From IMG/VR virus record IMGVR_UViG_3300007735_000758, positions 1 through 56,915 of that record: a DNA stretch of 56,915 bases, one strand, 5' to 3'. The DNA is from a virus (Duplodnaviria; Caudoviricetes). Of this stretch, positions 1 through 56,915 are shown piece by piece (position 1 is the first letter of the stretch; each line of letters begins with the position of its first letter). The position numbers and the translations under genes are program-made. The notes under the pieces were generated by a model. That model did not search any database. It saw only the letters and a list, made by a program, of their open reading frames with translations, and was not told the origin of the DNA.

Positions 1-127
1 ACATCTCTGTTGATACGCTGCTCTGCAAGCTGAATGATAGAATCCAGATTCGCAAGGAACGTGGTTTCGTCCGATTGAACGTAGTCCTGGATCTGCTGCT
101 TGAGTTCAGCGTATGTCATGATGGTCT
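1..127. repeat. Terminal direct repeat copy 1 (127 bp; circular assembly overlap)
   Basis: 1-127 is identical to 56789-56915. The gene starting at 56907 and the 137..1807 gene are contiguous across the join. Confidence 0.97.
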
Positions 128-6787: not shown

Positions 6788-7773
6788 TACGGCATCTCCT
6801 TTTGCTGTTTCAGTAGTTCTTTCGCGTACTGCTGAGGAGTGATCCCCAGGCGTTTGGCTACAGCTAAAGCCGACTCTGTAAGCTGGACTTTAGTGCGGGT
6901 CTGTCCATTAGGCGTTCTAGACGAACTAATGACTACTCCGTTTTTGGATTTGTTTTGTGTTGGTGCTGGTGCTTGGCTTGTAGCTTGCGTACCAGAGATG
7001 TTTTGGTGAAATTGATACACGGCTTTGTCGATAGCTTCGTAGTACTGGTCGCTCTCAGGATCTACTCCAGCGTTCACCAACTTAGAGTGAACGTCAATGG
7101 CGTACCCAGTAAGAGCCATATCGCTGCCGAACCAAGGATTTGCCTCTTTCCAGAGGACAGCTTTAGCGGATACCCGAGGTTGTGCAGGTTGAGCCGCAAC
7201 AGGCTGTGTGTCCTGTGGTTGTAGATAGCTTACACTTGACGTAGATGGTGGTGTATAGGACTCCAGCACTCGCTTTTCATTAGCAAGTACCGCGATGGCT
7301 TCCTGTGCTGCTGCCATCTTGTCCGTATCACCAGCCTCGTAGGCTTCTTTAAGAAGCCGTTTAGCGGCGTCCAGGTCTGAACCCTTCTGCTTGGCAGAAA
7401 CTTGAATCAACGCCCGTTGGTTTTCCTCAGAGTTCCTGCGATACTGCTCGATCTGCTGCTGAAGAGAAGAAGCATACGTCAATGCCTCTTGCGCTTCCCG
7501 TGCGGCGCGTTCTTTCTGTCGGCGCTCTTCGTGGAACTCGTACTTTAGACGCTTGATGCGTTTTTGTACGCTTTCCGAATAGTTCTTAAGTTCTTCGTCG
7601 TCGCTAGCAGCCGCTTGCGGTTCGCTTGTTTCGTTGCGAGGAGGACGACGATCCTCAGGAGGGGTGTCATCGACTACCTCAATCTCTAGATCTTCCTCTA
7701 CCGCGACAGGCTCACGCTCTTCTGCTTCTTGCCCAGGGACAACGAGATCAGATTCGATGCGTTCTTCTAGCAT
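6787..7773 (-). CDS. Scaffolding protein
   Basis: Acidic N-terminus, long coiled coil, NPWFG, C-terminal AKRLGITPQQYAK; lies between portal and capsid genes. Confidence 0.75.
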   Translation of the reverse strand: MLEERIESDLVVPGQEAEEREPVAVEEDLEIEVVDDTPPEDRRPPRNETSEPQAAASDDEELKNYSESVQKRIKRLKYEFHEERRQKERAAREAQEALTYASSLQQQIEQYRRNSEENQRALIQVSAKQKGSDLDAAKRLLKEAYEAGDTDKMAAAQEAIAVLANEKRVLESYTPPSTSSVSYLQPQDTQPVAAQPAQPRVSAKAVLWKEANPWFGSDMALTGYAIDVHSKLVNAGVDPESDQYYEAIDKAVYQFHQNISGTQATSQAPAPTQNKSKNGVVISSSRTPNGQTRTKVQLTESALAVAKRLGITPQQYAKELLKQQKEMP

Positions 7774-8108
7774 TAGACCCTCTCTACCTTGTCAGGATCA
7801 GGAACAACAGCCTCAGGCGTGTCGTCGTTGATGAGACGGTACTCTTCTCCATCAATTTTAATGCGAGTACCGGAATAACTGCGAAGAATGATGTGATCGC
7901 CCACGGAACACCAAGCCCCGTTAGGATATTTGATCGGATCTTTGTAAGCATCCGTCCCAAGCGCCAATACTTCAGCGATTAGAGACGCAGTGTTCTCGTC
8001 TTGCTTGGCTTGATCGGGGATATAGAGGCCAGACTTCGTCTTTTCCTCTACAACCTTTCGCATTTTCACCAAGATTTTGTAGCCAACTGGAGTTGGTAGT
8101 GTATTCAT
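7773..8108 (-). CDS. groES: GroES/Cpn10-like co-chaperonin
   Basis: PVGYKILV...EEKTKSGLYIPD...VLALG...VGDHI...YSGTRIKIDGEEYRLINDD. Confidence 0.9.
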   Translation of the reverse strand: MNTLPTPVGYKILVKMRKVVEEKTKSGLYIPDQAKQDENTASLIAEVLALGTDAYKDPIKYPNGAWCSVGDHIILRSYSGTRIKIDGEEYRLINDDTPEAVVPDPDKVERV

Positions 8109-19890: not shown

Positions 19891-20480
19891 GCCTCCGCTA
19901 CCGCCTCCAGCATCAAGCCACCAGGGCTAACATCACCATCCATGTTAGTAACATCAGAGTAAGTGGTAGTAAGTGAGTTAGCGCCATGCGTCTCCATGTT
20001 ACCAAGTAACATAGTTAGTTTGGCTCGCAACACATCGCCGAGTGACTTATTCAACTCAGCATTACTCTCGTTTGATGATGGCTCTTCGAAGATACTCGCG
20101 TATCTTGTTTTACCTACAAGCTCTAGTGCTTTCAGCCTGGTTATGTCTGAATCGGTGTTAGTTGCGGTATTAGTGAGGCCGTCCATGACGAACTTACGGA
20201 GCCTGGTCTTATCCTCCCACCAACTTGCCATTCTCTCCGCCTCCATTGCTTGTATCGCTACCGCAACATTAGGCTTCTTACTAACCTTCACCGATTGCAC
20301 TCTACCAGCGTTTGCGTTCCCATTCCACTTATACGCTTGCCTGTAGGCTTCCGCCTTACTAAGCCCTCCAAACACCAACCCCTCTGCAAACTTTCTCTGT
20401 TTCGGCGTTAACTTGCCTACTATCTCCTCTAGCGTGAGTTTCTTTCCATCCTGATAAACCCTAGTTACTTTGTTACTCAT
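19863..20480 (-). CDS. terS: Terminase small subunit
   Basis: LTPKQRKFAEGL...AEAYRQAY HTH, KPNV..AI and RLKALELVGK. Confidence 0.8.
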   Translation of the reverse strand: MSNKVTRVYQDGKKLTLEEIVGKLTPKQRKFAEGLVFGGLSKAEAYRQAYKWNGNANAGRVQSVKVSKKPNVAVAIQAMEAERMASWWEDKTRLRKFVMDGLTNTATNTDSDITRLKALELVGKTRYASIFEEPSSNESNAELNKSLGDVLRAKLTMLLGNMETHGANSLTTTYSDVTNMDGDVSPGGLMLEAVAEAPTGVGEGE

Positions 20481-20612
20481 GCGACTATATTAACACATAT
20501 TAATCTATCCTTTCGCATATAAGGAAACACGCGCGCGCGGTTTCCTTTAATCGCAAAAAAACACCAAACGAAAATTGCGGCGGCGGGCCCCACGAGCGCT
20601 ATTTCCGATAAG

Positions 20613-20706
20613 TCCTTTGTTTTCAACAAAACCCCCGAAATCTGGGACTTTTTTGGGAGAACATTAAAATCCCTCAATAATCGCTATCTCGTTGAAAACA
20701 AAAGGA
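20613..20706. repeat. Inverted repeat pair
   Basis: TCCTTTGTTTTCAAC (20613-20627) / GTTGAAAACAAAAGGA (20691-20706); perfect 12-bp core. Confidence 0.8.
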
Positions 20707-20760
20707 TTGGCCGGATGGACTTTCCTATAAACGGCGTGATTGAATAGTTGACAGTGGTGA

Positions 20761-21024
20761 CGCCGCCGCCTCAGGGCTGATAAACGTAAGCCGACCATCA
20801 CGAAATAGCCTGGAGAGACAACCAGGCGACAGCACGCCAAACGGACAGTTTGTGATGCTGACTGAGTCAGGAAAAACCTTGCAGCCGCTTTAGGGCAGAT
20901 AAACGTAAGACGAGGTTGTTCGATGTTGACGGTCAGCGGCATGGGCGGATGTTCCCCTATAACGTGCCGATGTGTCTTAGCATATAATCTCGCCGCCGCC
21001 TCAGGGCTGATAAACGTAAGCCGA
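20761..21024 (+). repeat. Module A, 34 nt x3 (20761-20794, 20880-20913, 20991-21024)
   Basis: CGCCGCCGCCTCAGGGCTGATAAACGTAAGCCGA; copies 1 and 3 are identical, copy 2 matches at 28/34. Confidence 0.95.
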
Positions 21025-21179
21025 GCTTACAAGCTAAGATTCTCTCAGCCAACTACCAGTTAACGGAGTAAGTCACTAGGTAGACGTTGATCGTATCCAA
21101 TAGGAAACCCTCACGCGCAAGTAACAACGTGACGTTAAAGCCATAGCCTATGGCTTGTTGAGCAATAAATGCACGCGTT

Positions 21180-21484
21180 GCCGAAATAACAGTAACCATA
21201 ACGGTGAATACATAGTAGGCGCATAAGCATAGCATTTAGCGGAGAAACACGCACCTACGGGAGCATCCGTCTAACGCATAATTGAACACTATAGGCACAC
21301 TGGTACTAACGTGTAAGTGATCCGGTCACTTACAGTCATATCATGTTGGCGCGTGGTAAAGGTAAGCGCCAAACAACGCAGAAGCGATAGCAAGTGGAGC
21401 GGGACAGGCGCGCTGATATATGGCACTCCGTCAGTAAATCAGAGCCGAAATAACAGTAACCCTAGCGGTGAATATACAGTAGGC
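21180..21484 (+). repeat. Module B, 41 nt x2 (21180-21220, 21444-21484)
   Basis: GCCGAAATAACAGTAACC-n5-GGTGAATAYAYAGTAGGC; 37/41 identical. Confidence 0.95.
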
Positions 21485-21670
21485 CAGAATTGAATAGGAA
21501 CTATATATTAGATTAAACGCGAATAAGTTAAGTAGCGAGATAGTAGAAAAAGCCAAATCTATAATGGGTCCGGTGCAAACTGGACCCATTTACCATTTAG
21601 CAACTAAATAAAGCCACATTCTGACAAGTGTGGCTCTATGTAGTTTCTAAACTACCAACAGGAGACAATT

Positions 21671-22348
21671 ATGACAACATACCACATCACGATGAAATCA
21701 CAGAACGGTAAAACCGGACCGATTCCGGTTACCACTACTAGTAAAGAAACTTGTTTCACTGGTTGCGGGCAGTATGAGAACTGCTACGCGAAACAGGGGC
21801 CTCTGGCGCTCCACTGGAACAAAGTCTCTGACGGGTCGCGCGGAATGACCCTGGCGCAGTTCTGCGCCGCTATCGAATCGCTTCCCGAGGGTACGCTCTG
21901 GAGACACAATCAAGCCGGGGATCTCCCCGGCGCTGATGGTAACATCGACCGCCGCGCATTGACAGATATCGTGATCGCCAACCTCAACAAACGTGGGTTC
22001 ACCTACACCCACAAGCCCATGACGCAGGAGAACGCCGGGATCGTGAAGAACGCTAACGCGCTTGGGTTCACCGTGAACTTGAGCGCCGATACCGTGGCGC
22101 AAGCTGACGAGTATGTATCGCTGGGCGTTGCTCCGGTAGTCCTCACAGTGCCGGAAGATACCCGCGCCAACTTCACCACTCCAGCGGGGAATAAAGTCGT
22201 AATCTGCCCCGCCGAAACCAAGGGCGTGACCTGCGCCGATTGCAAGCTTTGCGCGTGGTCGGGCCGGAAGGCTATCATCGCTTTCCCCGCTCACGGATCG
22301 AAGAAGAAGGCCGTCACCGCCGACAAGGTGTTTAACATCATCGCATAA
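21671..22348 (+). CDS. Gp88-like Cys-cluster phage protein
   Basis: NGKTGPIP, TCxxxCxxxxxCYA, RHNQAGDL, FTYTH and C-terminal CP....TCADCKLC; SD AGGAG. Confidence 0.65.
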   Translation: MTTYHITMKSQNGKTGPIPVTTTSKETCFTGCGQYENCYAKQGPLALHWNKVSDGSRGMTLAQFCAAIESLPEGTLWRHNQAGDLPGADGNIDRRALTDIVIANLNKRGFTYTHKPMTQENAGIVKNANALGFTVNLSADTVAQADEYVSLGVAPVVLTVPEDTRANFTTPAGNKVVICPAETKGVTCADCKLCAWSGRKAIIAFPAHGSKKKAVTADKVFNIIA

Positions 22349-22401
22349 GGGCTGACAACAGCCCCAAGTGGTATCAACAAAGGGTAGCTACGGCTACCCT
22401 T
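22349..22401 (+). promoter_or_regulatory. Tandem hairpins upstream of csx16
   Basis: GGGCTG-ACAA-CAGCCC and AAGGGTAGC-TACG-GCTACCCTT (cUNCGg loop); no U tract. Confidence 0.55.
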
Positions 22402-22433
22402 GATTGGTGACACTTCACCTATTGGAGAAAGTT

Positions 22434-22757
22434 ATGTATATCATCATTTCGCGGCACCCTGCCGCTATCGATTTCATCCGCGCCAACGATGCGCGGTTTT
22501 TGACGGCGCCCGTCATCACGGGCAACGCCACGCCCGAAGATGTTCGGGGCAAGGTGGTAGCGGGTAACATCCCGCTATCCCTCGCCGCACTAGCAGACGA
22601 GGTCGTCGCCGTGGAGTTCTCCGGCGCACCGCCTCGCGGCGCGGAGTACACCGCCGCCGACATGGTCGCCGCTGGTGCGCGTCTGGAAGCGTATGTGGTC
22701 AAGCGCAGTATTGCGTTTGACTACTGCGTCACGCACTCGCGAGCTGACGCATTTTAG
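22434..22757 (+). CDS. csx16: Csx16 (Cas_VVA1548)-family protein; candidate cA4 ring nuclease / anti-type III CRISPR
   Basis: ISRHPAAIDF...VVAGNIPLSLAA...RGAEYTAADMVAAGARLEAYVV matches the recalled Csx16 pattern SRHPGA...VIGTLP.HLAA...RG.EL...GARL..Y.V; SD GGAG. Confidence 0.75.
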   Translation: MYIIISRHPAAIDFIRANDARFLTAPVITGNATPEDVRGKVVAGNIPLSLAALADEVVAVEFSGAPPRGAEYTAADMVAAGARLEAYVVKRSIAFDYCVTHSRADAF

Positions 22758-35131: not shown

Positions 35132-35517
35132 TCAACGATCCCTTTATGCCGGAAAGCATGACGGCTAAAGGGGAGCATGGAGAAATCGTACAGAAGAGAG
35201 ATGCTAGCGCAGCGATGTATCGCATCGCTGCAACGATCTCCACCAGTCTCAAGTTCCTCCCCCTAAAAGCAGTTAAACTATCCATCATCAAAGAGGATAC
35301 ATACGGCATCCAGGACTACAGTGCGTTCCTAGATGTTTGCGTTCGCATCCTCTGGAGGGCTGGAGTAATCGACTGCATGACAGGATCCAGCGTAAAGTCT
35401 GTCGAGATGACACACAACAAGACAGACCGGAGGAAGGTTGTCATCCTGGTCACCCCTCTTAAAACCCGAGAAGTTTTGATAGACCAACTCGAAAACGAAG
35501 CGGCAACTCTGATTTGA
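35053..35517 (+). CDS. Hypothetical protein, possibly a degenerate RusA fold (start uncertain)
   Basis: LKAVKLSI...QDYSAFLD...L.RAGVID...V...KVVILVTP. Confidence 0.45.
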   Translation: MGNPDAIAEEPEERILPRKGQPIRIIINDPFMPESMTAKGEHGEIVQKRDASAAMYRIAATISTSLKFLPLKAVKLSIIKEDTYGIQDYSAFLDVCVRILWRAGVIDCMTGSSVKSVEMTHNKTDRRKVVILVTPLKTREVLIDQLENEAATLI

Positions 35518-38500
35518 GATCTTTGATCTCAGAAGAAAGCGAGACGATCTCTTCTTGAATAGAGTTGAGTTCGTCTCGTTTCTGTTCTGGAGACATATCT
35601 TCAGCCGCAAGAACAGTACGCTTCATGCGGTTCAATGCTTGAACCCGTTTCAGGGTAGGCTGAATAGCCTTGTCGATGTACAGCATAGAGCGAAGCTCAT
35701 CCTGGCGCTCAGGAGACATCTCCCTCTGCCCTCTGGATACTGCTCTCAGAGTGGCTACTGCCATATTCGCAGCCTCATCCAGCTCGTACAGATCCTCGAC
35801 AGCCTTGCGTCCATTAGCACTGCGGAATAGCTGACCGATCCCAGGAAGAAGGTACGGTTCGCTAAAGCGAATACGCTCAGGCTTAGGAGCAGCTTTGCCT
35901 TCTTCGAGAATCATGCCGATAATATCAGCGGTCATAGCGCCAAGAGATCCCGTATAACCACGAATCAAATGATCCAGCTTTACTGGGGATACACCCATAG
36001 CTTGACCTGCCATCTTATAAACCTCAGAAGTGTATTCGGTGTAACGCTCTTCAGGAAGAAGCCGTTGAAGATAAGCGTTCTCGATAGGCTTCTGAGTGTA
36101 CATATCAAAGTTGGCAGTATGCTCAAAGTACGGACGAAAAATTTGAGGGATAGGGTTCATGCTTAACGTAGCAAGCAATCCACGAGCCATTGCATCTACT
36201 AATTCTGGGCCATCATCCAGGCCCCTATAGTAGGAAACCAATCTCTCAGGGAACATCTTAGTAACAAGGCCAAGCTCCTGAGGGATGGGAAACTTTAAGA
36301 CAGTTCCCTCTTTTATTCCAGGAATCCAGTCTATAGGAACAAAGATATTACTATCTCGCTCTTCATCTGTTGCATTCAGCCAAGCCTTAGTGCCTGAGAT
36401 TAAAACAGCATAAACCCCCGAAAGAGCAGAGACGTAAGCCATTCGGGTATAGACCGCTTTCTTTGAACTTCCTGTCAGTTCAGTAGGGATCATCTTGTCG
36501 CCCTTCAGGGTGCGATAAGCAACATCTAAACCCTGGAGCCGAGCATTAAAGAATGGCAGCAAAGCAATCGCTACCTGCGCGCCACGAGATGTGCCACGCC
36601 GAGAGAAGTTAATAGTCTCCATCGCGGCGAACAAAGCCTCCGCTTCATCTCCAGTCTTTTCTAATGCATTTTTGTATGCCTGAACACGACTGATTCCTTC
36701 AGACTTATCTGCTGCATTCTCAAGTATGTCGTAGAACTTTTTATAGAAAGCTCTCTGCTCAACTCCAATCTTTTCTCGAATTGATTTTGCAGCAGATGCA
36801 ATGTTTTGAGTTCGAATGCCAGACCCAGCAATACCAGCACCTTGCAGCGCACGGTATTCAGGAGAGTTTTGCAACACAGAAGTAATGCCTTTAACGTATT
36901 CGCCAACAGGAGGCGTAAGGTCAGATCCAAAGCCGCCCTGCATCCATACCTGTAAAGTATCTCGAATTGGATTTTTTAGAATAAACGAAGGAGTCGTAGT
37001 AACCCCGCGCCGAAGTGCTGTAGTAAACGATCCCATCATCTTCAGCGCATCCTGCACCGGGATAGTAGACTTTGCAACGGCATCGTACACCAGCGGATCA
37101 TCAACCTGATAGAACTTCTTGACACCGTTCTCTCGAATGCTGATGACATTCGACCCAGGATCTTCCTTGGCGCGACGTTTAGTCTTCTCGTCGATAGGTA
37201 GTTCTTTTATATACCCAGTTGTAATGCCATCCCTTACGATTCGTTCACCTGCTACGTTCTTCATAGCAGTGCCGATCATGAAGTAGGTGTTGTAGATGAT
37301 GTTCTCCATGGCATCGTTGACACGGAGGTTGCGCCCAGACAATGACTTTGCGGCAGCTAGATTCGTCGCCTTTGTTCCAACCTTCGGCGCGTCCACCTCT
37401 CCCGTTTCAACGTCTCCATCCTGAGTCTTGACAGTAGGCAAACGATAGAAAGGAATGTAGTAGGATTGCTTCCACGACTCTGCCATTTTTTTGTCAATGA
37501 AACCACTCTTCCTTAAGACATCAATCAAGTTATCGTTGAATGCCTTGAAGCGTTTCATTGCATCGTCGATGACTTTATCGTCCTTAAAAGCATCCCATGT
37601 GCGTCTGACATCCTCGATCTTAACTACGCCACCAGGATCTCTGTTTTGTCCTTCCGCAAGATCCAGGTAGCGCCGAGCATATGCTGCCTCAAAGAACTCT
37701 TCCAGCTTGTTAGCAAACCCAGATTGAGATGCAGGCATAGCAGCCAACTCTCCAAAGAGTTTGATCGGAGAGTTCTTTTCATTCTCTACAGCACGAAAGA
37801 TACTTCCGTCATAAGAGAAGCCGCCAAACTCCAAACCTGCCATCGCAATGTCTTGCGCCTTATCGGAGAACAGGAGAGCCTGATAAGCACCGGATGCAGC
37901 AGCAAGGTACTTCCTGTCACCCGTTTGCTCGTATGCTTTAATTGCCCATTCCTTTACAGGATCATACCGATCCAAGAACTTCTGCCGGAAAGAGGAGCGA
38001 CGATCAATCGAGAAGAAGTTGTAGATCTTGTCTACCAAGTTCTCTTTAGAGCGAGGAGAGAAAGCCCGGACCAACCCATCAGGAGTAACAGAAGAAGAAC
38101 TTGAGGCAGAATCCTCATCCTCTGCTAAAGAATACATAATATCTTTAGATGAAGAAGGAGAGCCTTTACCACTATAGGTAATAGCAAACTCAGGTTTAAG
38201 TAATGAAGATGAAAAAGGAGTAATTTTTTTCCTTCTTACTGGAGAAAAGTTGATTCTAGATTCTACATCTCTAGACTCAATTTCCCCGGCAAGCCTATTG
38301 TACAAATGCCAAGACTCCGGGCTTTTCTTCAATACTCTTTTTATATCTTGGATGTTGGACCCACGAAGAATACTTCTCTGGTCTGATGCCCTTGCGATTT
38401 CGTTTTCCAAATCATATCGCGTAGATGATATGTATTTCTTTACTCTGTCATCGTAAGTGTCAGATGGTCCCGCAGAAAAAGGATCTCCACTATCAATTTT

Positions 38501-41500
38501 TTTGAATGCACCCAAAACTTGCTCTGCCAAGAAACGCTGATATTCACGGTTACCCGCCTTGTAACCGTATAAATCAAGAACGCTTTTTGCATATGGCAAG
38601 AGATTGCTTATTCCAGTATAAGGATCGTAAGTGTTAGAGTTATCAAGTATTTCATTTTTAAATGAAAGAAGCATAGTCTGGACTGGCGTTAAGAAATCAA
38701 CACGATCTTCCAAACTGCGTATATCCTCATTAAGCCTTCTCTGCATTGAGGTTGCGGTAAGTTTGATTAGTTTGTCAGAAGCAAACTCAACAGCTACTTC
38801 ATTGTTGCCACCACTTGCAAACCCCTCTTTGTCCTGAATCCAATGCTGCACTTCGTGCATGAGAGTTGATCTCTGCTGTGCAGCAGACTGGCTTGGGTTA
38901 ATAACGATAGCACTTGCATCAGGAACAAAAAAACCCATTGCGTCAATATCATTTAGCTTGAAAACCTTGATGTTCATCAGCTCTGGGTAAGCATCAAACA
39001 ATTCAGGATGATCTAATGCCTCTGCGAGAGTAATACTTCCAAAAGCTGAATAGGGATCTGTTTCGCCTTGTGAGCGCGAGGGCATTTTGAGAAAATCATC
39101 GGTCAGTCTTGCTGACTTGTCTTCAATCTCAAACCTCAGCTTCTTGTCGTATGGGCCTTTGAACCAGCCAGTCGCGAGTCTAATTTGCTCAGGGGTCTTG
39201 CCTTCGGCTTCCATTTGCGAAGCAGCAGCCTTCCGATATGCCATCGTTGCTGATTTTATTGGGTCTGCCTCGTAAGCATTCTCCCCAAGAAATGCGTACA
39301 AAGCCTCTTCTACGGCTTCGTCTTTCTTTTCGGTTGATTTGTTTTTCTGCTGTTTAATTTTACCTTTAGCAGCTTTAGGTTTTTCGGTAGCTACTGGCTC
39401 AGGTGCAGGGCGAACAAACTCAGCAACCTTCCCCGCCGCTGGAATCTTTATCTCCCGTGGTGCAGAGATCTCTTTCCCGGTAATCGTCTGCTCGTAGAAA
39501 GGGGTAAAGCGCCTGCCTCCAATCTCTCCAGACTTGACAGCAGCCAGCACATCCTCAGCCGAGGCATACCCCATCTGTGCAGCAGTGCGACCAAACCCAA
39601 GGAATGCTTCAACTTTTTTGACGAGGCTCTTCGCTACAGGGTCCAACCGTTTAGGATCTACGTTAGAGAAATCAGCAGCAGCTTTAGCAATTGCTTCTTC
39701 CTGCAACAAGCTATTCAAGTCTTTTCGGCTAGCGTAACGATTCCGATAAGCCTTCTCTCTCTCTTCTCCCAAGTACGAGATCTTGAATCGGGTAGTCAGC
39801 ATCTTCCATTCAGCATCGGAAAACAGATTCAATGCCTTCATGCCATGAATAATTTCATGGTCAAGGGTCTTTATCATGTCATCTTTAGTGCGAACCTTGC
39901 CTTCAGGAGAGTATGCAAGATAGATAACTCGATTCAGGTATTGACCATTTGCTGGCTGAACATTCCCCTTTGCATCAAGCAACGCATTAGAAATGCCGAG
40001 AAGAAATAGATCCTCAGCCTTGCGCTTCTTTAGCGCCGCAACAAGATCCGGCGCATACTGCGCTGCAATCTTCTCATCGAACTCAGGTTGCGTTGTCGTA
40101 GTTTGTGCAATGTTGAACAACTGTTCCCCAGTAGGCTGAGGCTGAGGAGTGGGTTCAACCATTTCATACAGAGGGCCTTCAGCCTTAGGCTCAACAAAAT
40201 ACTTTGGCGCTCCTTTGCCCTCTACTTCTTTAAGATCTCCACGCTTCCGCATCAACGCCATCATGCTATTAGCAGCAGGGGCAGGGAGATCAAACGTCTT
40301 TTTAATATAAGTCGTGGTAACAGGAGTGTCAGGGTTAGCCTGCAACACATCCAATACTTGTCTGTATTTAGCTGTAGTGAAGGGCATCCCTTCAAACTGC
40401 TTGCGCTCCAGCATTTCTTCTGGAGTTATCTGGAGGCTTCTAATGTCTCCTTCATCAACTAACTTGCCTACAGTCTCCAGTTCTGAGACAGAGGGAGTAG
40501 CCGAAGGGAAGAAGCTAGGAGTGCTGAGTTTCTCAAGAGGCTTCCCGTAGATTGCCTGCGCTGCACGTTTCTGCCTTACGTCTACAGGCTCAACGCTAGA
40601 TCCCTCTACCCCCATTGCGGTACGGATCTCAGCTTCCTCTACAGCGTCTTGATATTCTTTCTGGTTCAGTTGAACCTGAGTATCGACGAGAGCAGACAGT
40701 TCAAGTTTCTGGTTATCGTTCAGCTTGCCGAGAGATTTATTTAGCTCCTCCCGAGCCAGATAAGAAGCTATTGGGTAGTTATCCTGAATGTTCTTGTTGG
40801 CCGCAGTCAGTTTCTCTTGGCGCTTGTACGTCTCCTCCAGCATGAGATCGACAAACGTAGGGATGTCTTTAGCTTCTACGTCAGCCAAAGACTCAATACC
40901 CATCTGAGAGAAGACAGTATCTGCTACCTCAGGGTTTTGATTGACAAACTTAGTAGCGTCTTTCAGATCCTTCTTAGCTTTAATCTCCAAGCCTTTTTCG
41001 TAAAAAAGACGAGAAGCCTCGTTGGATCTTTGAGTTTGTTCTTCTAGTTCTTGAAGTTGCTTATCAGCAAAGTCAATATCCTGCTGCGTAGCTCCAGCAG
41101 GGAGAGTAATCATTCTCCCGGAAGGAGCCACGACTTGCGTATATTCTCCACCAGGAGGTAGCTGCTTCTGGAACCCAGACTTCTGCTTCTCTATTTCTTG
41201 CTCAATGTACGCACGACCAGCCGCCCGTCCAGCCTCCTCACTCTCTATACGGCTTTTCTCTACTTCTTGAACGACTTGTTCGATTTCTTCATCAGTTGCA
41301 TTTGACCTAACAGTAACGGTCCCTACCCTTGTATTCACATCACGAACAGAGCCACCGGGAGGGAGTAATCCTCTTATGCCCTCAGGAACTTCTCCTGCTT
41401 TGGCAATAGACTCTTCAATCTTCCTTACGCCTTTCTCTTTCGGCGTCTCCCTGTCTACAACACGCTGCTTTCCTGTGACAGGATCAATGAATACCGTAGT

Positions 41501-42592
41501 CTGTGCCGCAGTCTCTGGCGCGGTAGGAGGAGCCGATAGTTCTCGATTCGCTCTTGCCATTGCCCTTTCATTCGCAGACTTAGCCTGCTTGGCCTGGAAG
41601 ATCTCTATCCCGCCCTGAATTGCAGTACCACCCAACCCTCCGGCAATCAAAGACTCCTTCAGCCCTTCAGTAATCTGCTGCTCAGGATCATATGCGTACT
41701 TGGTAATTACATTCTGAAGAGTATTCTGCAACCCTTCTACCGGAGACTCTAAGGCTCCAGCCTGGAGCGCAGACTTTACCCTGGCACCCGTCCCAAGGTT
41801 GGCAATAAGACTGTCTTTCTGACGCGCCAACTCCTCTGCTATCTTCACAGCAGCTACGTCTGGTGCTTCTCCTGCAAATCTTTTCTCGATACCCTTAACA
41901 ACATCAGGAGCCAGTTCTCCTGCCTCTCTAAACAAACGTCCAACAAGAGGGAGCTTCTGCGCGACAGGAGATCCAAGCATCTTTCCTAAGGGAAGGGCTT
42001 CCAGAGCAGCAGAACCTGCGCCAGCCAAAGCAGACAGACCTGCTTCTTCCGCTTCGGAGATCTGCTTGCCTGCTTCTCTCGCTTCTGCAATCCGTTGAGA
42101 CTGCTCCCCCGCTCCGCTTAATCCCGATACAGCAGAACCAATGCCAAGAGCAGCACGACCACCAAGCCCTGCAACCTTAGCCAATACGCCTGGGGTGAGG
42201 TAGGTAGCAAGATTACCGACAAGACGACCTCCAGCACCCCCCAGGCTTTGGCGCTGTTCTTCGTCAAGCAGTTCTTTGGATATGTCCTCTCCGAATTGAG
42301 AGATGCCTTGACCTGCCTGCTTTAATGCGTCAATCGTAGTGAGAGCGCCGATGCCTGATACGGTACTGCCAACGCCCTGCGCGATACCTTCAGGGATGCT
42401 GCCTAGAAAGGCACCAGCTTGGGAAAGAATACCGGGAGAAGGAGGTTGCTTCTTGGGCGGCGCAGGAGGAGCGGGAGGAGAAAGTAAAGACTTATCTACC
42501 TGTTCGCTAACGTACCTCTCTAGATCAACTCCCTGCAATTCAACAGGGACACGCATCAGACCAAAGCCGTTAACGTATACAACCTTTTCCAT
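35459..42592 (-). CDS. Large polyvalent ejected protein (zincin domains, LPD23-like, LPD38-like)
   Basis: 2377 aa; HEIIH, EQIRLATGWFKG.DKKLRFEI, HEVQHWIQDKEGFASGGN, LAGEIESR, INFSRRG...PFFNARLQG, SPVKLDHLIRGYTGSLG. Confidence 0.8.
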   Translation of the reverse strand: MEKVVYVNGFGLMRVPVELQGVDLERYVSEQVDKSLLSPPAPPAPPKKQPPSPGILSQAGAFLGSIPEGIAQGVGSTVSGIGALTTIDALKQAGQGISQFGEDISKELLDEEQRQSLGGAGGRLVGNLATYLTPGVLAKVAGLGGRAALGIGSAVSGLSGAGEQSQRIAEAREAGKQISEAEEAGLSALAGAGSAALEALPLGKMLGSPVAQKLPLVGRLFREAGELAPDVVKGIEKRFAGEAPDVAAVKIAEELARQKDSLIANLGTGARVKSALQAGALESPVEGLQNTLQNVITKYAYDPEQQITEGLKESLIAGGLGGTAIQGGIEIFQAKQAKSANERAMARANRELSAPPTAPETAAQTTVFIDPVTGKQRVVDRETPKEKGVRKIEESIAKAGEVPEGIRGLLPPGGSVRDVNTRVGTVTVRSNATDEEIEQVVQEVEKSRIESEEAGRAAGRAYIEQEIEKQKSGFQKQLPPGGEYTQVVAPSGRMITLPAGATQQDIDFADKQLQELEEQTQRSNEASRLFYEKGLEIKAKKDLKDATKFVNQNPEVADTVFSQMGIESLADVEAKDIPTFVDLMLEETYKRQEKLTAANKNIQDNYPIASYLAREELNKSLGKLNDNQKLELSALVDTQVQLNQKEYQDAVEEAEIRTAMGVEGSSVEPVDVRQKRAAQAIYGKPLEKLSTPSFFPSATPSVSELETVGKLVDEGDIRSLQITPEEMLERKQFEGMPFTTAKYRQVLDVLQANPDTPVTTTYIKKTFDLPAPAANSMMALMRKRGDLKEVEGKGAPKYFVEPKAEGPLYEMVEPTPQPQPTGEQLFNIAQTTTTQPEFDEKIAAQYAPDLVAALKKRKAEDLFLLGISNALLDAKGNVQPANGQYLNRVIYLAYSPEGKVRTKDDMIKTLDHEIIHGMKALNLFSDAEWKMLTTRFKISYLGEEREKAYRNRYASRKDLNSLLQEEAIAKAAADFSNVDPKRLDPVAKSLVKKVEAFLGFGRTAAQMGYASAEDVLAAVKSGEIGGRRFTPFYEQTITGKEISAPREIKIPAAGKVAEFVRPAPEPVATEKPKAAKGKIKQQKNKSTEKKDEAVEEALYAFLGENAYEADPIKSATMAYRKAAASQMEAEGKTPEQIRLATGWFKGPYDKKLRFEIEDKSARLTDDFLKMPSRSQGETDPYSAFGSITLAEALDHPELFDAYPELMNIKVFKLNDIDAMGFFVPDASAIVINPSQSAAQQRSTLMHEVQHWIQDKEGFASGGNNEVAVEFASDKLIKLTATSMQRRLNEDIRSLEDRVDFLTPVQTMLLSFKNEILDNSNTYDPYTGISNLLPYAKSVLDLYGYKAGNREYQRFLAEQVLGAFKKIDSGDPFSAGPSDTYDDRVKKYISSTRYDLENEIARASDQRSILRGSNIQDIKRVLKKSPESWHLYNRLAGEIESRDVESRINFSPVRRKKITPFSSSLLKPEFAITYSGKGSPSSSKDIMYSLAEDEDSASSSSSVTPDGLVRAFSPRSKENLVDKIYNFFSIDRRSSFRQKFLDRYDPVKEWAIKAYEQTGDRKYLAAASGAYQALLFSDKAQDIAMAGLEFGGFSYDGSIFRAVENEKNSPIKLFGELAAMPASQSGFANKLEEFFEAAYARRYLDLAEGQNRDPGGVVKIEDVRRTWDAFKDDKVIDDAMKRFKAFNDNLIDVLRKSGFIDKKMAESWKQSYYIPFYRLPTVKTQDGDVETGEVDAPKVGTKATNLAAAKSLSGRNLRVNDAMENIIYNTYFMIGTAMKNVAGERIVRDGITTGYIKELPIDEKTKRRAKEDPGSNVISIRENGVKKFYQVDDPLVYDAVAKSTIPVQDALKMMGSFTTALRRGVTTTPSFILKNPIRDTLQVWMQGGFGSDLTPPVGEYVKGITSVLQNSPEYRALQGAGIAGSGIRTQNIASAAKSIREKIGVEQRAFYKKFYDILENAADKSEGISRVQAYKNALEKTGDEAEALFAAMETINFSRRGTSRGAQVAIALLPFFNARLQGLDVAYRTLKGDKMIPTELTGSSKKAVYTRMAYVSALSGVYAVLISGTKAWLNATDEERDSNIFVPIDWIPGIKEGTVLKFPIPQELGLVTKMFPERLVSYYRGLDDGPELVDAMARGLLATLSMNPIPQIFRPYFEHTANFDMYTQKPIENAYLQRLLPEERYTEYTSEVYKMAGQAMGVSPVKLDHLIRGYTGSLGAMTADIIGMILEEGKAAPKPERIRFSEPYLLPGIGQLFRSANGRKAVEDLYELDEAANMAVATLRAVSRGQREMSPERQDELRSMLYIDKAIQPTLKRVQALNRMKRTVLAAEDMSPEQKRDELNSIQEEIVSLSSEIKDLKSELPLRFRVGLSKLLGF

Positions 42593-43953: not shown

Positions 43954-46900
43954 CTACTTGTTCAAATAGTTGAGGAGAGAACCAGCACCTGCGCTAACCA
44001 GCCCACTCAACCCACCAGCAGCAGGGCGCTGGAACTGAACGCCTTCTACCTGCATACCTGTCGGCACTCCACCCAAGATTCCCTGGAGGAAGTTCATCTG
44101 CTGATAGGGGAAGTTCTGCTGATTGATGAAGTCTTGATAGGCAAGATCCAAAGCCTGCTGAGTACGAGCATCAACCGCTCCTCCAGCCTGCTGCATCGCA
44201 GCAAGACGCTGGAGTTCAAGCTGTTGCGCCATACCAGGAATACCCATCATTGTACCTCCCAGACCAGCAAGCCCAGCAGCACCAGCCTGAGCCTGCTGCA
44301 TCGCTGCTAACCGATTCTGGAAGCCACGCTGACGAGCAGCTTCCTGCTCCGCAGAAGCCTGTTTAATTGCATCTAACTGCATCTGCCACGTTGCCAGATC
44401 TCCAGACTGAGAAGCCTTCGCAGCTTCCAATCCAGCTTGTGTTGCCAACTGCTGGGTAGCAAGAGCAGATTGCAGGTTGCCCTGTCCTGCTGTCAGCCCT
44501 GCCTGTTGATTCGCTAGCTGGGCCTGTAGAGCCTGCTGTGCAGCAAGCTGCTGCGTCCCTAGACGAGCAGCAAGGTTCTCTCGTCCTGCGGTAAGACCCG
44601 CCTGCTGATTCGCAAGAGCCGCTTGGAGGTTCTGAGCAGACTGACCCCGAAGGATATCTGCCGTTGTACCGTACTGCGTAAGCCCTGCCTGCTGCCGTGC
44701 CTGTTGGTTAGCGAGAGCAGCCTGAAGACCAGTTTGAGTGCCAAGCTGTTGAGTGGCAAGTTGAGCGCCCAAATTCTCTCGTCCAGCCGTAAGGCCAGCC
44801 TGTTGATTCGCAAGGGCAGCTTGAAGATTTTGAGCGGATTGCCCTCTAAGAATATCAGCCCTTGTGCCATATCCAGTAAGATTAGCTTGCTGTGCTGCCT
44901 GCTGATTAGCCAATGCAGCTTGAAGAGCCTGTTGAGATCCAAGTTGCTGAGTTGTAAGATTAGCGGCAAGGTTTTCCCTTGCTGCGGTCTGTGCAGCTTG
45001 TTGATTAGCAAGAGCAGCTTGAAGATCCTGAGCGGATTGACTTCTGAGGATGTCTGCTCTGGTGCCGTATTGAGTGAGGCCAGCTTGCTGTGCTGCCTGC
45101 TGATTAGCGAGAGCAGCCTGAAGACCAGCTTGAGTTCCTAGCTGTTGGGTAGCAAGTTGAGCGCCCAAGTTTTCTCGTCCAGCCATAAGGCCAGCCTGTT
45201 GATTCGCAAGAGCGGCCTGAAGGTCTTGAGCAGACTGAGAGCGAAGGATATCGGCTCTAGTGCCGTATTTAGTAAGATTAGCTTGCTGTGCTGCCTGCTG
45301 ATTTGCAAGAGCGGCTTGAAGACCAGCCTGGGTTCCCAATTGCTGGGTGGCAAGCAAAGCACCCAGGTTCTCCCTGCCTGTCGTAACACCAGCCTGTTGA
45401 TTGGCAAGAGCAGCCTGCAAGCCAGACTGTACGTTAGCTTGCTGCGAAGCAAGAGAAGCAGCACGATCTCTTTCAAACTGTGCTTGTGCATTCTCGAATG
45501 CTCTCTGCCTACCTATTGCTTCGATGTCTCCAATCTGACGCTGGAGTGCTTCCTCTGCCAGCCCTTCCTGAATAGCCTGACGGCTACCTCCGAAGGCACC
45601 AGCACGGACAGCAGCAGCACTACGGCCAGCTTTCTGCATCGCAGCTTGGCGGGAGGCTTCTCGCTTCTGTACATCCGTTACGGCATCCATATACGGAGAC
45701 ATATACTGTTCAGCCTGAGGCCTGCCAAAAGCGTCTACGCGAGTACGTTCAGCCGCAACTCGCTCCGCTGGACCCATTTGGAATTGCTGAACTTGAGGCA
45801 CCCCTTCAACCTTGAATCCAGAAACATCTCCCAATGCGGATAAAATATCTCTCGTTTGCCCAGTAACTCTTTCTGGCCCCTGCATCTGGAACTGCTGGAC
45901 CTGAGGAACACCCTGCACCTGAGCAGATTGCAAACCTCCAAGAATCCCAAGAATGTCTCTTGTTTGACCAGTTACCCTTTCAGGAGCAGCAATTTGGAAT
46001 CGCTCTAGAGAAGGAATAGGATCAACTCTAGCGCCCTGAATGCCACCAAGAGATCCAAGAATGTCTATGTTTTGCCCAGTTACCCTTTCAGGCCCTTGCA
46101 TCTGAAACTGCTGAACCTGAGGAACGCCTTCAACCTGCGCTGCGTTAAGCCCACCCAGCCTGCCCAGGATGTCAATGTTCTGACCAGATACACCCATTGG
46201 TTCAGCCATCTGATAATCTTTCAAGTTTGCGGCAGTTACCCCGGTGGGAGCTTGTAAGGTAGGTGCCATCAAAGGATCTATTTTGATTGGACCCTTGAAT
46301 CCCATCTCCTTAATTCCAGGCATCAGGCTCATCAGATAGCTTTGCTGTTCCGGCGAAGCCATTGTCTGCCCAAGGAAATCTCTACCAGCAGCAGCCGATT
46401 CCCCTGCGATGTCGGTAGCAAAGTTGATGCTCCTTACACCTTTACCAAAATCAGTCCCGGCGCTGATCTGTCCTTCGGGAGTAAAGATACTGGGGAGACC
46501 ACCAGCTCCGCGCAAAGCATTCAGCGTCATGTCGCTTGCTTTGAAACCAACGCCAGGAGCATATTGCCCAAACTCAAGAGGATTCTGAGTTGTTCCGAAC
46601 TGCATAATCCTCTGCTGTCCGTATACAGGAGGAGGATTAAAAATGTTTGGGATCCCAGAAGTGTTAACATTCGGGTTTGCAGCAGCAAACAAATTCTGGA
46701 ACCCACCCATAGAAGGCTGAGAAGCAAAGCCAACCCCACCGGGGTTAGGCCCAGAGAATCCACCCGTCTGCTTTCTGATAGCACCACCCTTACGGTAGTT
46801 TCTTACCTTGCCATCATCTCCAATATCAAATTGAGCAAGAGAACCACCAGAAGCAAACCCCCTGCCAAAGTAAGGGACGACTGGTTTCTGCTCAAGTTCT

Positions 46901-56251: not shown

Positions 56252-56907
56252 TAGCCGATATTCCTTTTGCTGTCAGGGTTCCTGTAGTTGTCCATTCTCT
56301 GCTCGTCTTCACAGACGTTCTTCAATTCAATCAGCCCAAGCTGATACAGCTTCTCGTACTGCTGCTGCATTTGAGGCTCACCCTTCAAGAAGGAATAGGC
56401 TTCAACAAGGCACCCGTAGAGCAACACTTGAGGGAAGTAGTTGCTGACCCATGTAATGTTGCTGCTTGCGCCAACAATCGTATCCGGGGTCTTGTAGTAG
56501 TAAAGAGTGTAAGTATAAGGTACGTCTGCTGATGGCGCTACAAGAAGTGTAGTGGATGAATCGCCAGATGACTGAATAGCGTAATACGAAGGAGGCCCCG
56601 TTGTGCCAGGAGAACTTCCTGTCACGCCATACGCCTCTGTTAGATACGAAGGCTCTTTAAGGAGAAGCCCAGTCTGGGTGCCTCCGATATTGACAAAGAC
56701 ACTCAGTGGCATAACGAAATCGCTGGGAGTCGTTATAGTCTGAGTTGTTACGTTGCCAGTAACGGAGGCCCTAGAGTCAGGAGACTTTACATCTCTGTTG
56801 ATACGCTGCTCTGCAAGCTGAATGATAGAATCCAGATTCGCAAGGAACGTGGTTTCGTCCGATTGAACGTAGTCCTGGATCTGCTGCTTGAGTTCAGCGT
56901 ATGTCAT
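56251..56907 (-). CDS. Head-tail adaptor-like protein
   Basis: MTYAELKQQIQDY...LAEQRI...LLYGCLVEAYSFLK. Confidence 0.75.
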   Translation of the reverse strand: MTYAELKQQIQDYVQSDETTFLANLDSIIQLAEQRINRDVKSPDSRASVTGNVTTQTITTPSDFVMPLSVFVNIGGTQTGLLLKEPSYLTEAYGVTGSSPGTTGPPSYYAIQSSGDSSTTLLVAPSADVPYTYTLYYYKTPDTIVGASSNITWVSNYFPQVLLYGCLVEAYSFLKGEPQMQQQYEKLYQLGLIELKNVCEDEQRMDNYRNPDSKRNIG

Positions 56908-56915
56908 GATGGTCT
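56789..56915. repeat. Terminal direct repeat copy 2
   Basis: Identical to 1-127. Confidence 0.97.

What the first reader, a model, noticed from the sequence alone, without database searches (positions are those of the whole stretch)
21180..21484. Module B: two-fold pseudo-symmetric RNA with back-to-back loop E/sarcin-ricin (AGUA/GAA) motifs
Seen: GCC-GAAAUAACAGUA-ACC-loop-GGU-GAAUAYAYAGUA-GGC. Both 12-nt internal strands start with GAA and end with AGUA, giving an AGUA/GAA pair next to each helix. All four differences between copies fall in the loop or central region. Established: AGUA/GAA is the bulged-G motif of loop E and the 23S sarcin-ricin loop. Its segments (GCCGAA, AACC, GGUGAAU, GUAGGC) also echo conserved segments of the c-di-AMP (ydaO) riboswitch, without its full fold. 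Inference: a decoy for SRL-targeting toxins, or a symmetric pocket for a cyclic oligonucleotide.
Basis: partly seen in the sequence, partly recalled or inferred. Interest (0 to 1): 0.78.

Follow-up and report, generated by a model that had tools for sequence, protein, structure and literature searches.

The report
Duplicated hairpin module in phage non-coding block
A 41-base element that occurs twice in a very conserved, protein-free stretch of a freshwater phage genome most likely forms two look-alike hairpin tips of a phage-made non-coding RNA of unknown role; the proposed toxin-decoy or signal-binding function has no support.

Summary
A 41-nt unit lies at 21180-21220 and 21444-21484 (37/41 identical). 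Its four differences fall in the 5-nt loop and the centre of the 3' strand. Each unit reads GCC-GAA..AGUA-ACC-loop-GGU-GAA..AGUA-GGC.

Both units sit in a non-coding block (core 21156-21562) inside a 1.2-kb divergent intergenic region of a 57-kb HTVC023P-like podophage. In 6 related metagenomic contigs (5 distinct sequences) the core is 96-98% identical, against 83-87% for the flanking genes. The block ends in a hairpin (21563-21590) in which 7 pairs changed on both sides. Contigs from three RNA libraries lie on the block.

Across 8 distinct Module B copies, the AGUA/GAA letters and the inner helix never vary. However, the two 3-bp helices show no covariation, and one copy breaks the outer helix. 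Folding energies are not better than shuffles. No Rfam family matches, including the c-di-AMP riboswitch. The block is absent from slightly more distant relatives.

Best reading (about 0.5): twin apical hairpin modules of a clade-specific accessory phage ncRNA, probably protein-docking platforms. Main rival: DNA-level binding sites. The SRL-decoy and cyclic-nucleotide ideas remain pure speculation.

The parts
21180..21220 (+). Module B copy 1 (41 nt): GCC / 12-nt GAA..AGUA strand / ACC / 5-nt loop / GGU / 12-nt GAA..AGUA strand / GGC
   Evidence: variants in relatives
21444..21484 (+). Module B copy 2 (41 nt), 37/41 identical to copy 1
21166..21238 (+). Predicted hairpin H1, with Module B copy 1 as its tip above 7+2+4 further pairs
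   Evidence: RNAalifold. MFE equals centroid, -15.9 kcal/mol, z -0.52, not significant. The structure is predicted only.
21413..21511 (+). Predicted hairpin H6, with Module B copy 2 as its tip above about 22 further pairs, 3 of them G-U
   Evidence: -23.1 kcal/mol, z -1.64; the minus strand folds differently, z -0.18. The flanking stem is invariant in all 6 rows, so it says nothing for or against pairing.
21156..21562 (+). Conserved non-coding core block shared by all relatives that reach it; A-rich (35.6% A, 60% purine on the + strand)
   Evidence: Identity to the window is 399/407 (L084 and L087), 390/406 (L085), 395/406 (L086), 394/406 (L002) and 180/187 (L090, partial). The stretch between the modules is 217-222 of 223 identical. 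There are stops in all three + frames.
21053..21155 (+). Optional conserved 5' extension of the block, with small hairpin 21143-21157; missing in relative L002
   Evidence: 88-95 of 103 identical in L084-L087; only 1 aligned base in L002
21563..21590 (+). 12-bp hairpin with a GCAA loop followed by a moderately U-rich tail (to about 21600). This is the likely intrinsic terminator and 3' end of the RNA.
   Evidence: 7 of its 12 pairs changed on both sides between the window and relatives, and 97% of cells are paired. G-U pairs favour the + strand. It has a sub-threshold Rfam match to the terminator hairpin of BjrC68 (27.4 bits against a gathering score of 39). The consensus terminator scan did not list it.

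Best explanation
Module B is a discrete 41-nt element carried twice, 264 nt apart and on the same strand. It lies in a roughly 0.4-0.55-kb non-coding block between the divergently transcribed left genes and the early/replication operon of an HTVC023P-like podophage. The block is most likely a clade-specific accessory non-coding RNA gene, read on the + strand and ended by the covarying hairpin at 21563-21590.

In that RNA each Module B would be the apical domain of a long irregular hairpin. From the base upward it has a 3-bp helix, a 12x12 A-rich internal loop, a second 3-bp helix and a variable 5-nt loop. The two ends of the internal loop carry the AGUA/GAA (bulged-G, S-turn) consensus.

Proposed working: the two near-identical non-Watson-Crick platforms serve as paired docking sites for an RNA-binding protein, host or phage, possibly dimeric. 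The RNA would then act as a scaffold or sponge early in infection.

Shown: the repeat, its sharp limits, its invariance at the motif letters, the absence of coding capacity, selection on the 3' hairpin, and presence in RNA libraries. Inferred: the transcript limits, the Module B fold, the S-turns and the protein partner.
For: (1) The repeat is real and sharply bounded at the complementary GCC...GGC ends.

(2) Within a module the two 12-nt strands resemble each other (8/12), but their 3-nt flanks do not. The flanks are instead complementary in the hairpin sense. An RNA hairpin predicts this; tandem DNA sites do not (sequence).

(3) In 8 distinct copies the variable columns are 2, 11, 19, 22, 23, 32, 34 and 39. 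None falls on the 14 AGUA/GAA letters or on the inner helix (P 0.023 and 0.002). One of the two outer-helix changes keeps pairing as G-U (L085 copy 2).

(4) The core is 96-98% identical in relatives. The neighbouring genes are 536/618 (205-aa gene) and 558/675 (DUF7227), and the neighbouring spacers are 148/240 and 61/107.

(5) It is non-coding. There is no open + frame under any stop reassignment. The only + ORF of at least 40 aa over copy 2 (21317-21493) carries an in-frame TAG in L085. The minus-strand ORFs over the modules are broken or truncated in relatives.

(6) The hairpin at 21563-21590 has 7 of 12 pairs compensated and contains G-U pairs that only the + strand can form. It is followed by a U-rich tail in all rows.

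(7) The gene after the block differs among relatives: DUF7227 directly, a small ORF and then DUF7227, or another ORF. The block therefore behaves as a unit of its own rather than as a leader of one gene.

(8) Each of 3 metatranscriptome runs from 2 studies gave one contig on the block: 21232-21404 and 21261-21411 with no differences, and 21401-21540 with 3 differences.
Against: The whole block folds no better than shuffles on the + strand (z +1.23). H1 and H6 have z -0.52 and -1.64. Flank complementarity around the modules is ordinary: 37-39% of genome positions do as well as copy 1, and 13-18% as well as copy 2.

Outside the 3' hairpin, none of the 95 predicted pairs shows a change on both sides. 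The module helices are only 3 bp. L002 copy 2 has G39>A, which breaks the outer helix.

No promoter could be placed (and reading of the alignment). The consensus scan did not flag the 3' hairpin as a terminator, and its U-tract is interrupted.

The RNA-library evidence consists of low-depth contigs. These cannot show strand, ends or level, and DNA carry-over is possible.

The block occurs only in a strain-level clade. Its near-identity could therefore reflect recent spread rather than constraint.
Confidence: 0.5

Rival explanations
1. DNA-level sites. The four GAA-N5-AGTA boxes (two per module, 23 bp apart, with the pairs 264 bp apart) would be iterons or operators. A phage DNA-binding protein would bind them to control replication initiation, early transcription or packaging, in a control region next to a weakly TerS-like gene.
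For: There are four similar 12-bp boxes in direct orientation. They lie in the divergent control region, which also holds three Module A repeats and another very conserved non-coding stretch at 20481-20750. The adjacent 205-aa gene has weak small-terminase similarity (phrog_51, 3e-9; Pfam Terminase_2 at 17.3 bits, below its cut-off). There is no thermodynamic or covariation support for an RNA fold of the module.
Against: Binding sites do not explain why the 223 nt between the modules are 217-222/223 identical. They also do not explain why the box flanks differ between boxes yet are complementary as a hairpin. The strand asymmetry is unexplained: AGTA occurs 9 times on the + strand of the intergenic region and once on the minus strand. 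The compensated hairpin ending the block is also unexplained. The GC-skew profile gives no origin signal at 21 kb.
Confidence: 0.22
2. RNA processing signals. The two identical modules would be cleavage or recognition sites for an endoribonuclease, which would release a unit-length 264-nt RNA (or its 223-nt body) from a longer early transcript.
For: Direct repeats bracket the most invariant stretch (222/223 identical in L084). The modules lie in hairpins with large internal loops. The architecture of repeats followed by a terminator-like hairpin loosely recalls repeat-processed RNAs.
Against: No known self-cleaving ribozyme or processed-repeat family matches. One RNA-library fragment (21401-21540) runs uncut through copy 2. 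No nuclease partner was identified among the 90 ORF translations scanned against PHROGs and/or Pfam, or the 6 scanned against PADLOC.
Confidence: 0.1
3. No function of its own. The block would be a recently acquired mosaic or mobile module that has spread among closely related phages. The 41-nt direct repeat would be a leftover of duplication or recombination.
For: The block is absent from relatives whose 205-aa gene is 64% or 45% identical; these have short intergenic regions. It is absent from the whole records of 5 relatives, two of them 87% complete. It is absent from 80 TerL-related loci and from 80 DUF7227 loci. It has sharp identity borders and a 100-nt indel at its 5' side.
Against: The two paralogous copies stay 90% identical while their immediate flanks are at random identity. 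Variation avoids the same letters in both copies. Both points indicate selection on the module itself.
Confidence: 0.1
4. The module would be a decoy for toxins that attack the ribosomal sarcin-ricin loop, or a symmetric aptamer pocket for a cyclic (oligo)nucleotide.
For: The AGUA/GAA consensus is present twice per module and is invariant. The phage carries a Csx16-like gene about 0.8 kb downstream. Csx16 is a cA4 ring nuclease (PMC12409355, passages read), so cyclic-oligoadenylate signalling is plausibly relevant to this phage.
Against: The module has no SRL-type tetraloop; its loop is variable (N-U-A-R-Y). There is no Rfam match to ydaO or to any riboswitch at E <= 10. The module is a single hairpin, not a multi-helix pseudo-symmetric junction. 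There is no conserved alternative pairing with the 3' hairpin, whose sequence is replaced in relatives. No paper in the one full-text search made links phage ncRNAs with SRL decoys (listing only).
Confidence: 0.03

Closest known systems
Bulged-G / S-turn (loop E, sarcin-ricin) RNA motif, including the pseudo-symmetric loop E of bacterial 5S rRNA (motif definition recalled, not from a call)
   Same: A cross-strand AGUA/GAA consensus lies directly next to a Watson-Crick helix, present at both ends of a symmetric internal loop. The motif letters are invariant in all 8 distinct copies.
   Different: The loop is 12x12 rather than about 7x7. It is closed by only 3-bp helices and capped by a variable 5-nt loop instead of a GNRA-type loop. 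No 3D or probing evidence exists, and there is no ribosomal context.
ydaO-yuaA c-di-AMP riboswitch (Rfam RF00379; accession recalled)
   Same: Only the abstract idea of pseudo-two-fold symmetry.
   Different: There is no covariance-model match even at E <= 10. The module is a single hairpin rather than a pseudo-symmetric multi-helix fold. There is no switchable expression platform.
Orphan large ncRNAs of phages and lake metagenomes (GOLLD, ROOL and the like; names recalled)
   Same: It is a non-coding, conserved block of several hundred nucleotides in phage DNA from fresh water, with unknown function.
   Different: No Rfam family matches. The block is much smaller and known from only 7 contigs in total (the window plus 6 relatives). 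There is no covariation support for its body.
Duplicated cis-acting antitermination RNAs of lambdoid phages (nut boxB, HK022 put; recalled)
   Same: There are two copies of a short conserved hairpin element in early transcripts, upstream of a terminator-like hairpin and early genes.
   Different: Here both copies lie in one transcript on the same strand, 264 nt apart. There is no N-like or Q-like gene and no sequence or structure match. Function was not tested.
Type III antitoxin RNA repeats (ToxI-like) and phage pseudo-ToxI (recalled)
   Same: They are direct repeats of about 35-45 nt, A-rich, followed by a terminator and then a protein gene.
   Different: The repeats here are not contiguous (223 nt lies between them). 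No ToxN/AbiQ-like protein follows: 0 PADLOC hits for DUF7227 and for 4 other nearby ORFs of the 6 scanned. There is no Rfam match.
Iterons and operators of phage or plasmid control regions (recalled)
   Same: There are four similar 12-bp boxes in direct orientation in a divergent control region.
   Different: The boxes are embedded in a block of about 400 bp conserved at nearly every base. Their flanks are complementary rather than repeated. No binding protein is identified.

Membership tests
Bulged-G / S-turn (loop E, sarcin-ricin) motif | Cross-strand 5'-AGUA-3' / 5'-GAA-3', with the G-A end abutting a Watson-Crick helix | tested here: met
   Read directly from the sequence: GCC|GAA...AGUA|GGC and AGUA|ACC...GGU|GAA in both copies. 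The consensus itself is recalled.
Bulged-G / S-turn (loop E, sarcin-ricin) motif | Motif letters conserved in homologues | tested here: met
   0 of 8 variable columns fall on the 14 motif letters, across 8 distinct copies; P 0.023. The sample is narrow: one strain-level clade.
Bulged-G / S-turn (loop E, sarcin-ricin) motif | Closing helices supported by covariation | tested here: inconclusive
   The inner helix is invariant. The outer helix has one G-U-compatible change (L085 copy 2) and one disruptive change (L002 copy 2). No change occurs on both sides of any pair.
Bulged-G / S-turn (loop E, sarcin-ricin) motif | S-turn backbone geometry and base triple | not testable with these tools
   This needs JAR3D/RMDetect scoring, probing or a solved structure.
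Sarcin-ricin loop mimic (decoy) | GNRA-type tetraloop closing the bulged-G motif, as in the ribosomal SRL (recalled) | tested here: not met
   The terminal loop is 5 nt, reads N-U-A-R-Y and varies at 3 of its 5 positions.
ydaO-yuaA c-di-AMP riboswitch | Match to the Rfam covariance model | tested here: not met
   No match at gathering score in the window. It is not among the 10 matches at E <= 10 in 20400-21700.
Any described RNA family (Rfam 15, 4227 models, including known ribozymes, riboswitches, GOLLD, ROOL and ToxI) | Covariance-model match | tested here: not met
   The only match with E < 0.1 is a sub-threshold hit of BjrC68 on the 3' hairpin at 21543-21598.
Independent ncRNA gene | Non-coding, with its own 3' terminator under selection | tested here: met
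   There are stops in all + frames and a nonsense change in L085. 7 of the 12 pairs of the 3' hairpin are compensated. The U-tract is imperfect.
Independent ncRNA gene | Promoter and demonstrated transcript with defined ends and strand | tested here: inconclusive
   No convincing sigma-70-type promoter was found. Contigs from 3 RNA libraries lie on the block but give no strand, ends or level.
Type III antitoxin RNA | Contiguous tandem repeats followed by a ToxN/AbiQ-type endoribonuclease gene | tested here: not met
   The repeats are separated by 223 nt. No such protein appears among the 6 nearby ORFs scanned against PADLOC.
CRISPR-repeat mimic / mini-array | Repeat also present as an array in a host genome; spacer-sized interval | tested here: not met
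   There are 0 matches to the module pattern in genome contigs. The interval between copies is 223 nt.

The most novel reading that the evidence does not exclude
The twin Module B hairpins are a previously unseen RNA building block. Each would be a two-fold pseudo-symmetric double S-turn platform. A phage accessory ncRNA would display two of them to capture a symmetric partner. The boldest version is that the partner is a cyclic oligoadenylate such as cA4. The RNA would then act as an RNA sponge alongside the Csx16-like ring-nuclease gene encoded about 0.8 kb downstream. That would be the first RNA-based counter-measure to cyclic-nucleotide immune signalling.
Probability: 0.03. Interest if true: 0.9.

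Novelty: new variant of a known kind. Interest (0 to 1): 0.4.

Why it matters
Phages related to HTVC023P are among the most abundant aquatic viruses, yet none of the passages found in the one genomic survey of them that was checked mentions a non-coding RNA. If the reading is right, this is an undescribed accessory ncRNA. It is kept almost base for base while the surrounding genes drift. It lies at the head of the early operon, close to a candidate anti-CRISPR ring nuclease. That position is where host-takeover and anti-defence functions tend to sit. A natural hairpin with two back-to-back S-turns would also interest RNA structural biologists as a new modular motif. If the DNA-site rival is right, the element instead marks the replication or packaging control region of this phage group.

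Tried and rejected
Coding explanations were rejected: stops in all + frames, a TAG in L085 within ORF 21317-21493, and minus-strand ORFs over the modules broken or truncated in relatives.

tRNA or tmRNA: none found.

Known RNA families: none.

Cultured phages: blastn of the whole intergenic region gave no match, and tblastn of the 205-aa protein gave no match.

More distant homologues were sought in several ways:
- blastn of the intergenic region against 80 DUF7227 loci plus L002 found only L002.
- Against L092 and L093 it found only chance-level hits.
- Against 80 TerL loci (822 kb) it found nothing.
- A whole-record search of 5 relatives gave 0 of 5.
- The covariance model R1 of the module was run over the window and 85 loci (558 kb; known relatives L002, L083-L087, L090, L091 and L095 left out). 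It found only the two window copies, plus L088 and L089. Those two had been fetched by the module pattern itself and lie inside an open frame of about 158 codons ending in a biotinyl/lipoyl-like sequence; that protein family is my reading, not scanned. All other matches had E >= 0.33.
- Exact-pattern scans of genome contigs gave 0 hits for the module pattern and 0 for each of two central hairpins.

No antisense target for a module half was found elsewhere in the window at up to 3 mismatches.

A riboswitch-type terminator/antiterminator design was rejected. The 3' hairpin sequence is wholly replaced in relatives while the upstream block is invariant.

A loop-loop kissing interaction between the two 5-nt loops is not conserved across relatives (read).

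GGA-motif (CsrA-type) enrichment: by my own unaided reading of the sequence there are 5 in the core, about what composition predicts; no call counted them.

GC skew gives no origin signal.

RNA runs: the three RNA libraries gave no contig on the flanking genes within 20000-22400. Because these are contigs of runs found through this very stretch, the lack of cover is not used as evidence.

The survey paper on HTVC023P-type phages has no occurrence of 'intergenic', 'noncoding', 'non-coding', 'promoter' or 'RNA polymerase' in its main text (its supplements were not seen).

Full report
WHAT THE WINDOW IS. The window is a complete 56,915-base IMG/VR virus record with identical 127-base ends. Its large terminase is closest to phage 023Pt_psg01 (57% identity), Pelagibacter phages HTVC027P and HTVC023P (55% and 53%) and phage DSL-LC04. 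PHROGs and Pfam scans of 90 ORF translations in all (30 against PHROGs and 60 against Pfam, a few of them in both; not every called ORF) give a podovirus-like set of head, portal, adaptor and tail-fibre genes on the minus strand. A replication/recombination operon lies on the plus strand from 21671 to about 35.5 kb. No RNA polymerase, reverse transcriptase, integrase or obvious RNA-binding protein was found among them.

WHERE THE FINDING LIES. The finding sits in a 1,190-base ORF-poor region (20481-21670). On its left is a 205-aa gene on the minus strand, which has weak small-terminase similarity. On its right is the first gene of the plus-strand operon (DUF7227, 5.5e-87).

THE OBSERVATION. 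It is correct. A 41-nt unit occurs at 21180-21220 and 21444-21484, 37/41 identical and 264 nt apart. It occurs nowhere else in the window. The four differences are at positions 19 and 22 (loop) and 32 and 34 (centre of the 3' strand). Each unit reads GCC, then a 12-nt strand GAA..AGTA, ACC, five loop letters, GGT, a second 12-nt strand GAA..AGTA, and GGC. The repeat stops exactly at the GCC and GGC ends, because the neighbouring 20-40 nt of the two copies are no more alike than random pieces of the block.

RELATIVES. An exact-pattern scan of viral contigs found one relative (L002). A degenerate pattern found 7 stretches in metagenome contigs: 5 relatives (L084-L087 and L090, with L084 and L087 the same over the aligned part) and 2 chance hits inside a protein-coding frame (L088, L089).

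Aligned to the window, the relatives show the following identities:
- 205-aa gene: 536/618.
- DUF7227: 558/675.
- Module A spacer region: 148/240.
- Stretch after the block: 61/107.
- Core 21156-21562: 390-399 of 406-407.
- The 223 nt between the two modules: 217-222 of 223.

A further conserved segment (21053-21155) is present in four relatives and missing in L002. The gene that follows the block differs among relatives.

The block is confined to this strain-level clade. It is absent from the following:
- two relatives whose 205-aa gene is 64% and 45% identical, which have short intergenic regions;
- 80 DUF7227 loci;
- 80 terminase-related loci;
- the whole records of five relatives, two of them 87% complete;
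- cultured phages;
- species-representative prokaryote genomes, by exact patterns only.

CODING OR NOT. The plus strand has 25-33 stops per frame over the 1.19 kb, of all three kinds, so no reassignment opens it. The only plus-strand ORF of at least 40 aa over a module (21317-21493, GTG start) has TGG changed to TAG in L085. The minus-strand ORFs over the modules are truncated by the L002 deletion or destroyed in all relatives. The one ORF that stays open (21289-21426, between the modules) shows only non-synonymous changes. The block is therefore non-coding.

IS IT AN RNA? The best evidence is the hairpin that closes the block (21563-21590, 12 bp, GCAA loop). Its sequence is replaced in the relatives, but 7 of its 12 pairs changed on both sides and 97% of cells stay paired. 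It contains G-U pairs that would be A-C on the other strand, and a U-rich tail follows in every row. The tail is interrupted, and the consensus terminator scan did not list the site. 'Terminator' is therefore an inference.

Each of three metatranscriptome runs from two studies yields one contig on the block: 21232-21404 and 21261-21411 without a difference, and 21401-21540 with three differences. These contigs show that the sequence is present in RNA libraries. They do not show strand, ends or level. The plus strand of the core is 35.6% A and 60% purine. AGTA occurs 9 times on the plus strand of the intergenic region and once on the minus strand. No promoter could be assigned.

IS MODULE B A FOLDED RNA MOTIF? 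Four points favour it. First, the flanks of the two similar 12-nt strands are not repeated but complementary, as a hairpin needs. Second, RNAalifold puts both copies at the tips of longer hairpins whose lower stems have unrelated sequences (H1 21166-21238, H6 21413-21511). Third, for both isolated hairpins the MFE equals the centroid. Fourth, in 8 distinct copies the 8 variable columns avoid all AGUA/GAA letters and the inner helix (P 0.023 and 0.002).

Several points count against it:
- The z-scores are -0.52 and -1.64 for the hairpins and +1.23 for the block.
- The complementarity of the module flanks is matched by 13-39% of positions genome-wide.
- Outside the 3' hairpin, no predicted pair shows a compensatory change.
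- One copy (L002 copy 2) has C-A in the 3-bp outer helix.

The cross-strand AGUA/GAA arrangement does fit the bulged-G (S-turn) consensus at both ends of the 12x12 loop. That consensus is recalled, and 3D-motif scoring was not available.

The c-di-AMP riboswitch resemblance fails the only test available, since there is no covariance-model match at E <= 10. The module lacks an SRL-type terminal loop. The 3' hairpin cannot be part of a conserved switch, because its sequence is free to change while the block is fixed. Nothing supports ligand binding.

One contextual fact is worth recording. The gene at 22404-22757 is Csx16-like (Pfam PF09652, 34.8 bits against a cut-off of 25; PADLOC Csx16, 8e-8; NCBIfam TIGR02620 only 17 bits). 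Csx16 was shown to be a cA4-specific ring nuclease and was found in only 2 of 28,114 phage genomes (PMC12409355, passages read). This makes cyclic-oligoadenylate defence relevant to the phage. It does not link that defence to Module B.

VERDICT. Module B is a real element under selection. Most likely (about 0.5) it is the apical domain of two hairpins in a clade-specific accessory phage ncRNA, offering two identical non-Watson-Crick platforms to a protein partner. The first 12-nt strand also reads as four A-R-N triplets (positions 6-17), a pattern I recall as an Hfq distal-face site; this is a lead only.

The main rival (about 0.2) is that the four GAA-N5-AGTA boxes are DNA sites in a replication, packaging or transcription control region. 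Two lesser rivals are RNA processing signals and a recently spread mosaic module. The decoy and aptamer ideas stay at a few per cent.

The element matches no described family. It is known from only seven contigs in total (the window plus six relatives), and its function is open. Interest is moderate.

Noticed in passing
window 20756-20798, 20875-20917, 20986-21028: 'Module A': three direct repeats sharing the core AGGGC-GATAAACGTAAG-CGA, spaced 119 and 111 nt, found only here in the window. Relatives have two copies with variant spacers, in an otherwise poorly conserved stretch (148/240 identical). They may be promoters, binding sites or RNA elements; this is not resolved.
   Followed up: partly
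window 20481-20750: A second very conserved non-coding stretch (262/270 identical in L084, 261/270 in L002) lies directly upstream of the 205-aa gene. It holds a hairpin with a (CG)n loop that is expanded by 26 nt in L086. It also holds a perfect 12-nt inverted repeat at 20616-20627 / 20691-20702.
   Followed up: partly
window 22404-22757 (+): A 117-aa Csx16-like protein (Pfam Cas_VVA1548 34.8 bits; PADLOC Csx16 8e-8). Csx16 is a cA4 ring nuclease that is rare in phages (PMC12409355), so this is a candidate anti-type-III-CRISPR gene.
   Followed up: partly
window 21613-21634: A 6-bp hairpin with a 10-nt loop lies between the block's 3' hairpin and the DUF7227 start codon. Two of its pairs are changed on both sides in all 6 relatives (C-G to G-C and A-T to G-C), while the loop is kept except for one base.
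   Followed up: partly
window 23747, 24340, 24717, 25031, 25768, 27758, 30555 (approximate starts): The palindrome TGTCCAAATTTGGACA and close variants recur 6-7 times just upstream of ribosome-binding sites of plus-strand operon genes and near 27.8 and 30.6 kb. It is a likely operator or middle-promoter motif.
   Followed up: no
window 1-127 and 56789-56915: The 'direct terminal repeat' is exactly 127 bases long. That length equals a common largest assembler k-mer (recalled). It may therefore mark a circular assembly rather than physical ends. If so, the true genome ends or pac site are unknown and could lie in a non-coding region such as this one.
   Followed up: no
window 44450-45425 and 45844-46212 (inside the 1479-aa ORF 43954-48393): There are ten 99-nt and three 108-nt in-frame tandem repeats in a large virion-module protein with no family match.
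   Followed up: no
window 35459-42592 (-): A 2377-aa polyvalent protein with LPD38, LPD23 and an M78/DUF6782-type metallopeptidase motif. It is a probable ejected virion protein.
   Followed up: no
window 7773-8108 (-): A phage-encoded GroES-like co-chaperonin (Cpn10, 1.2e-14). One is also annotated in relative 023Pt_psg01.
   Followed up: no
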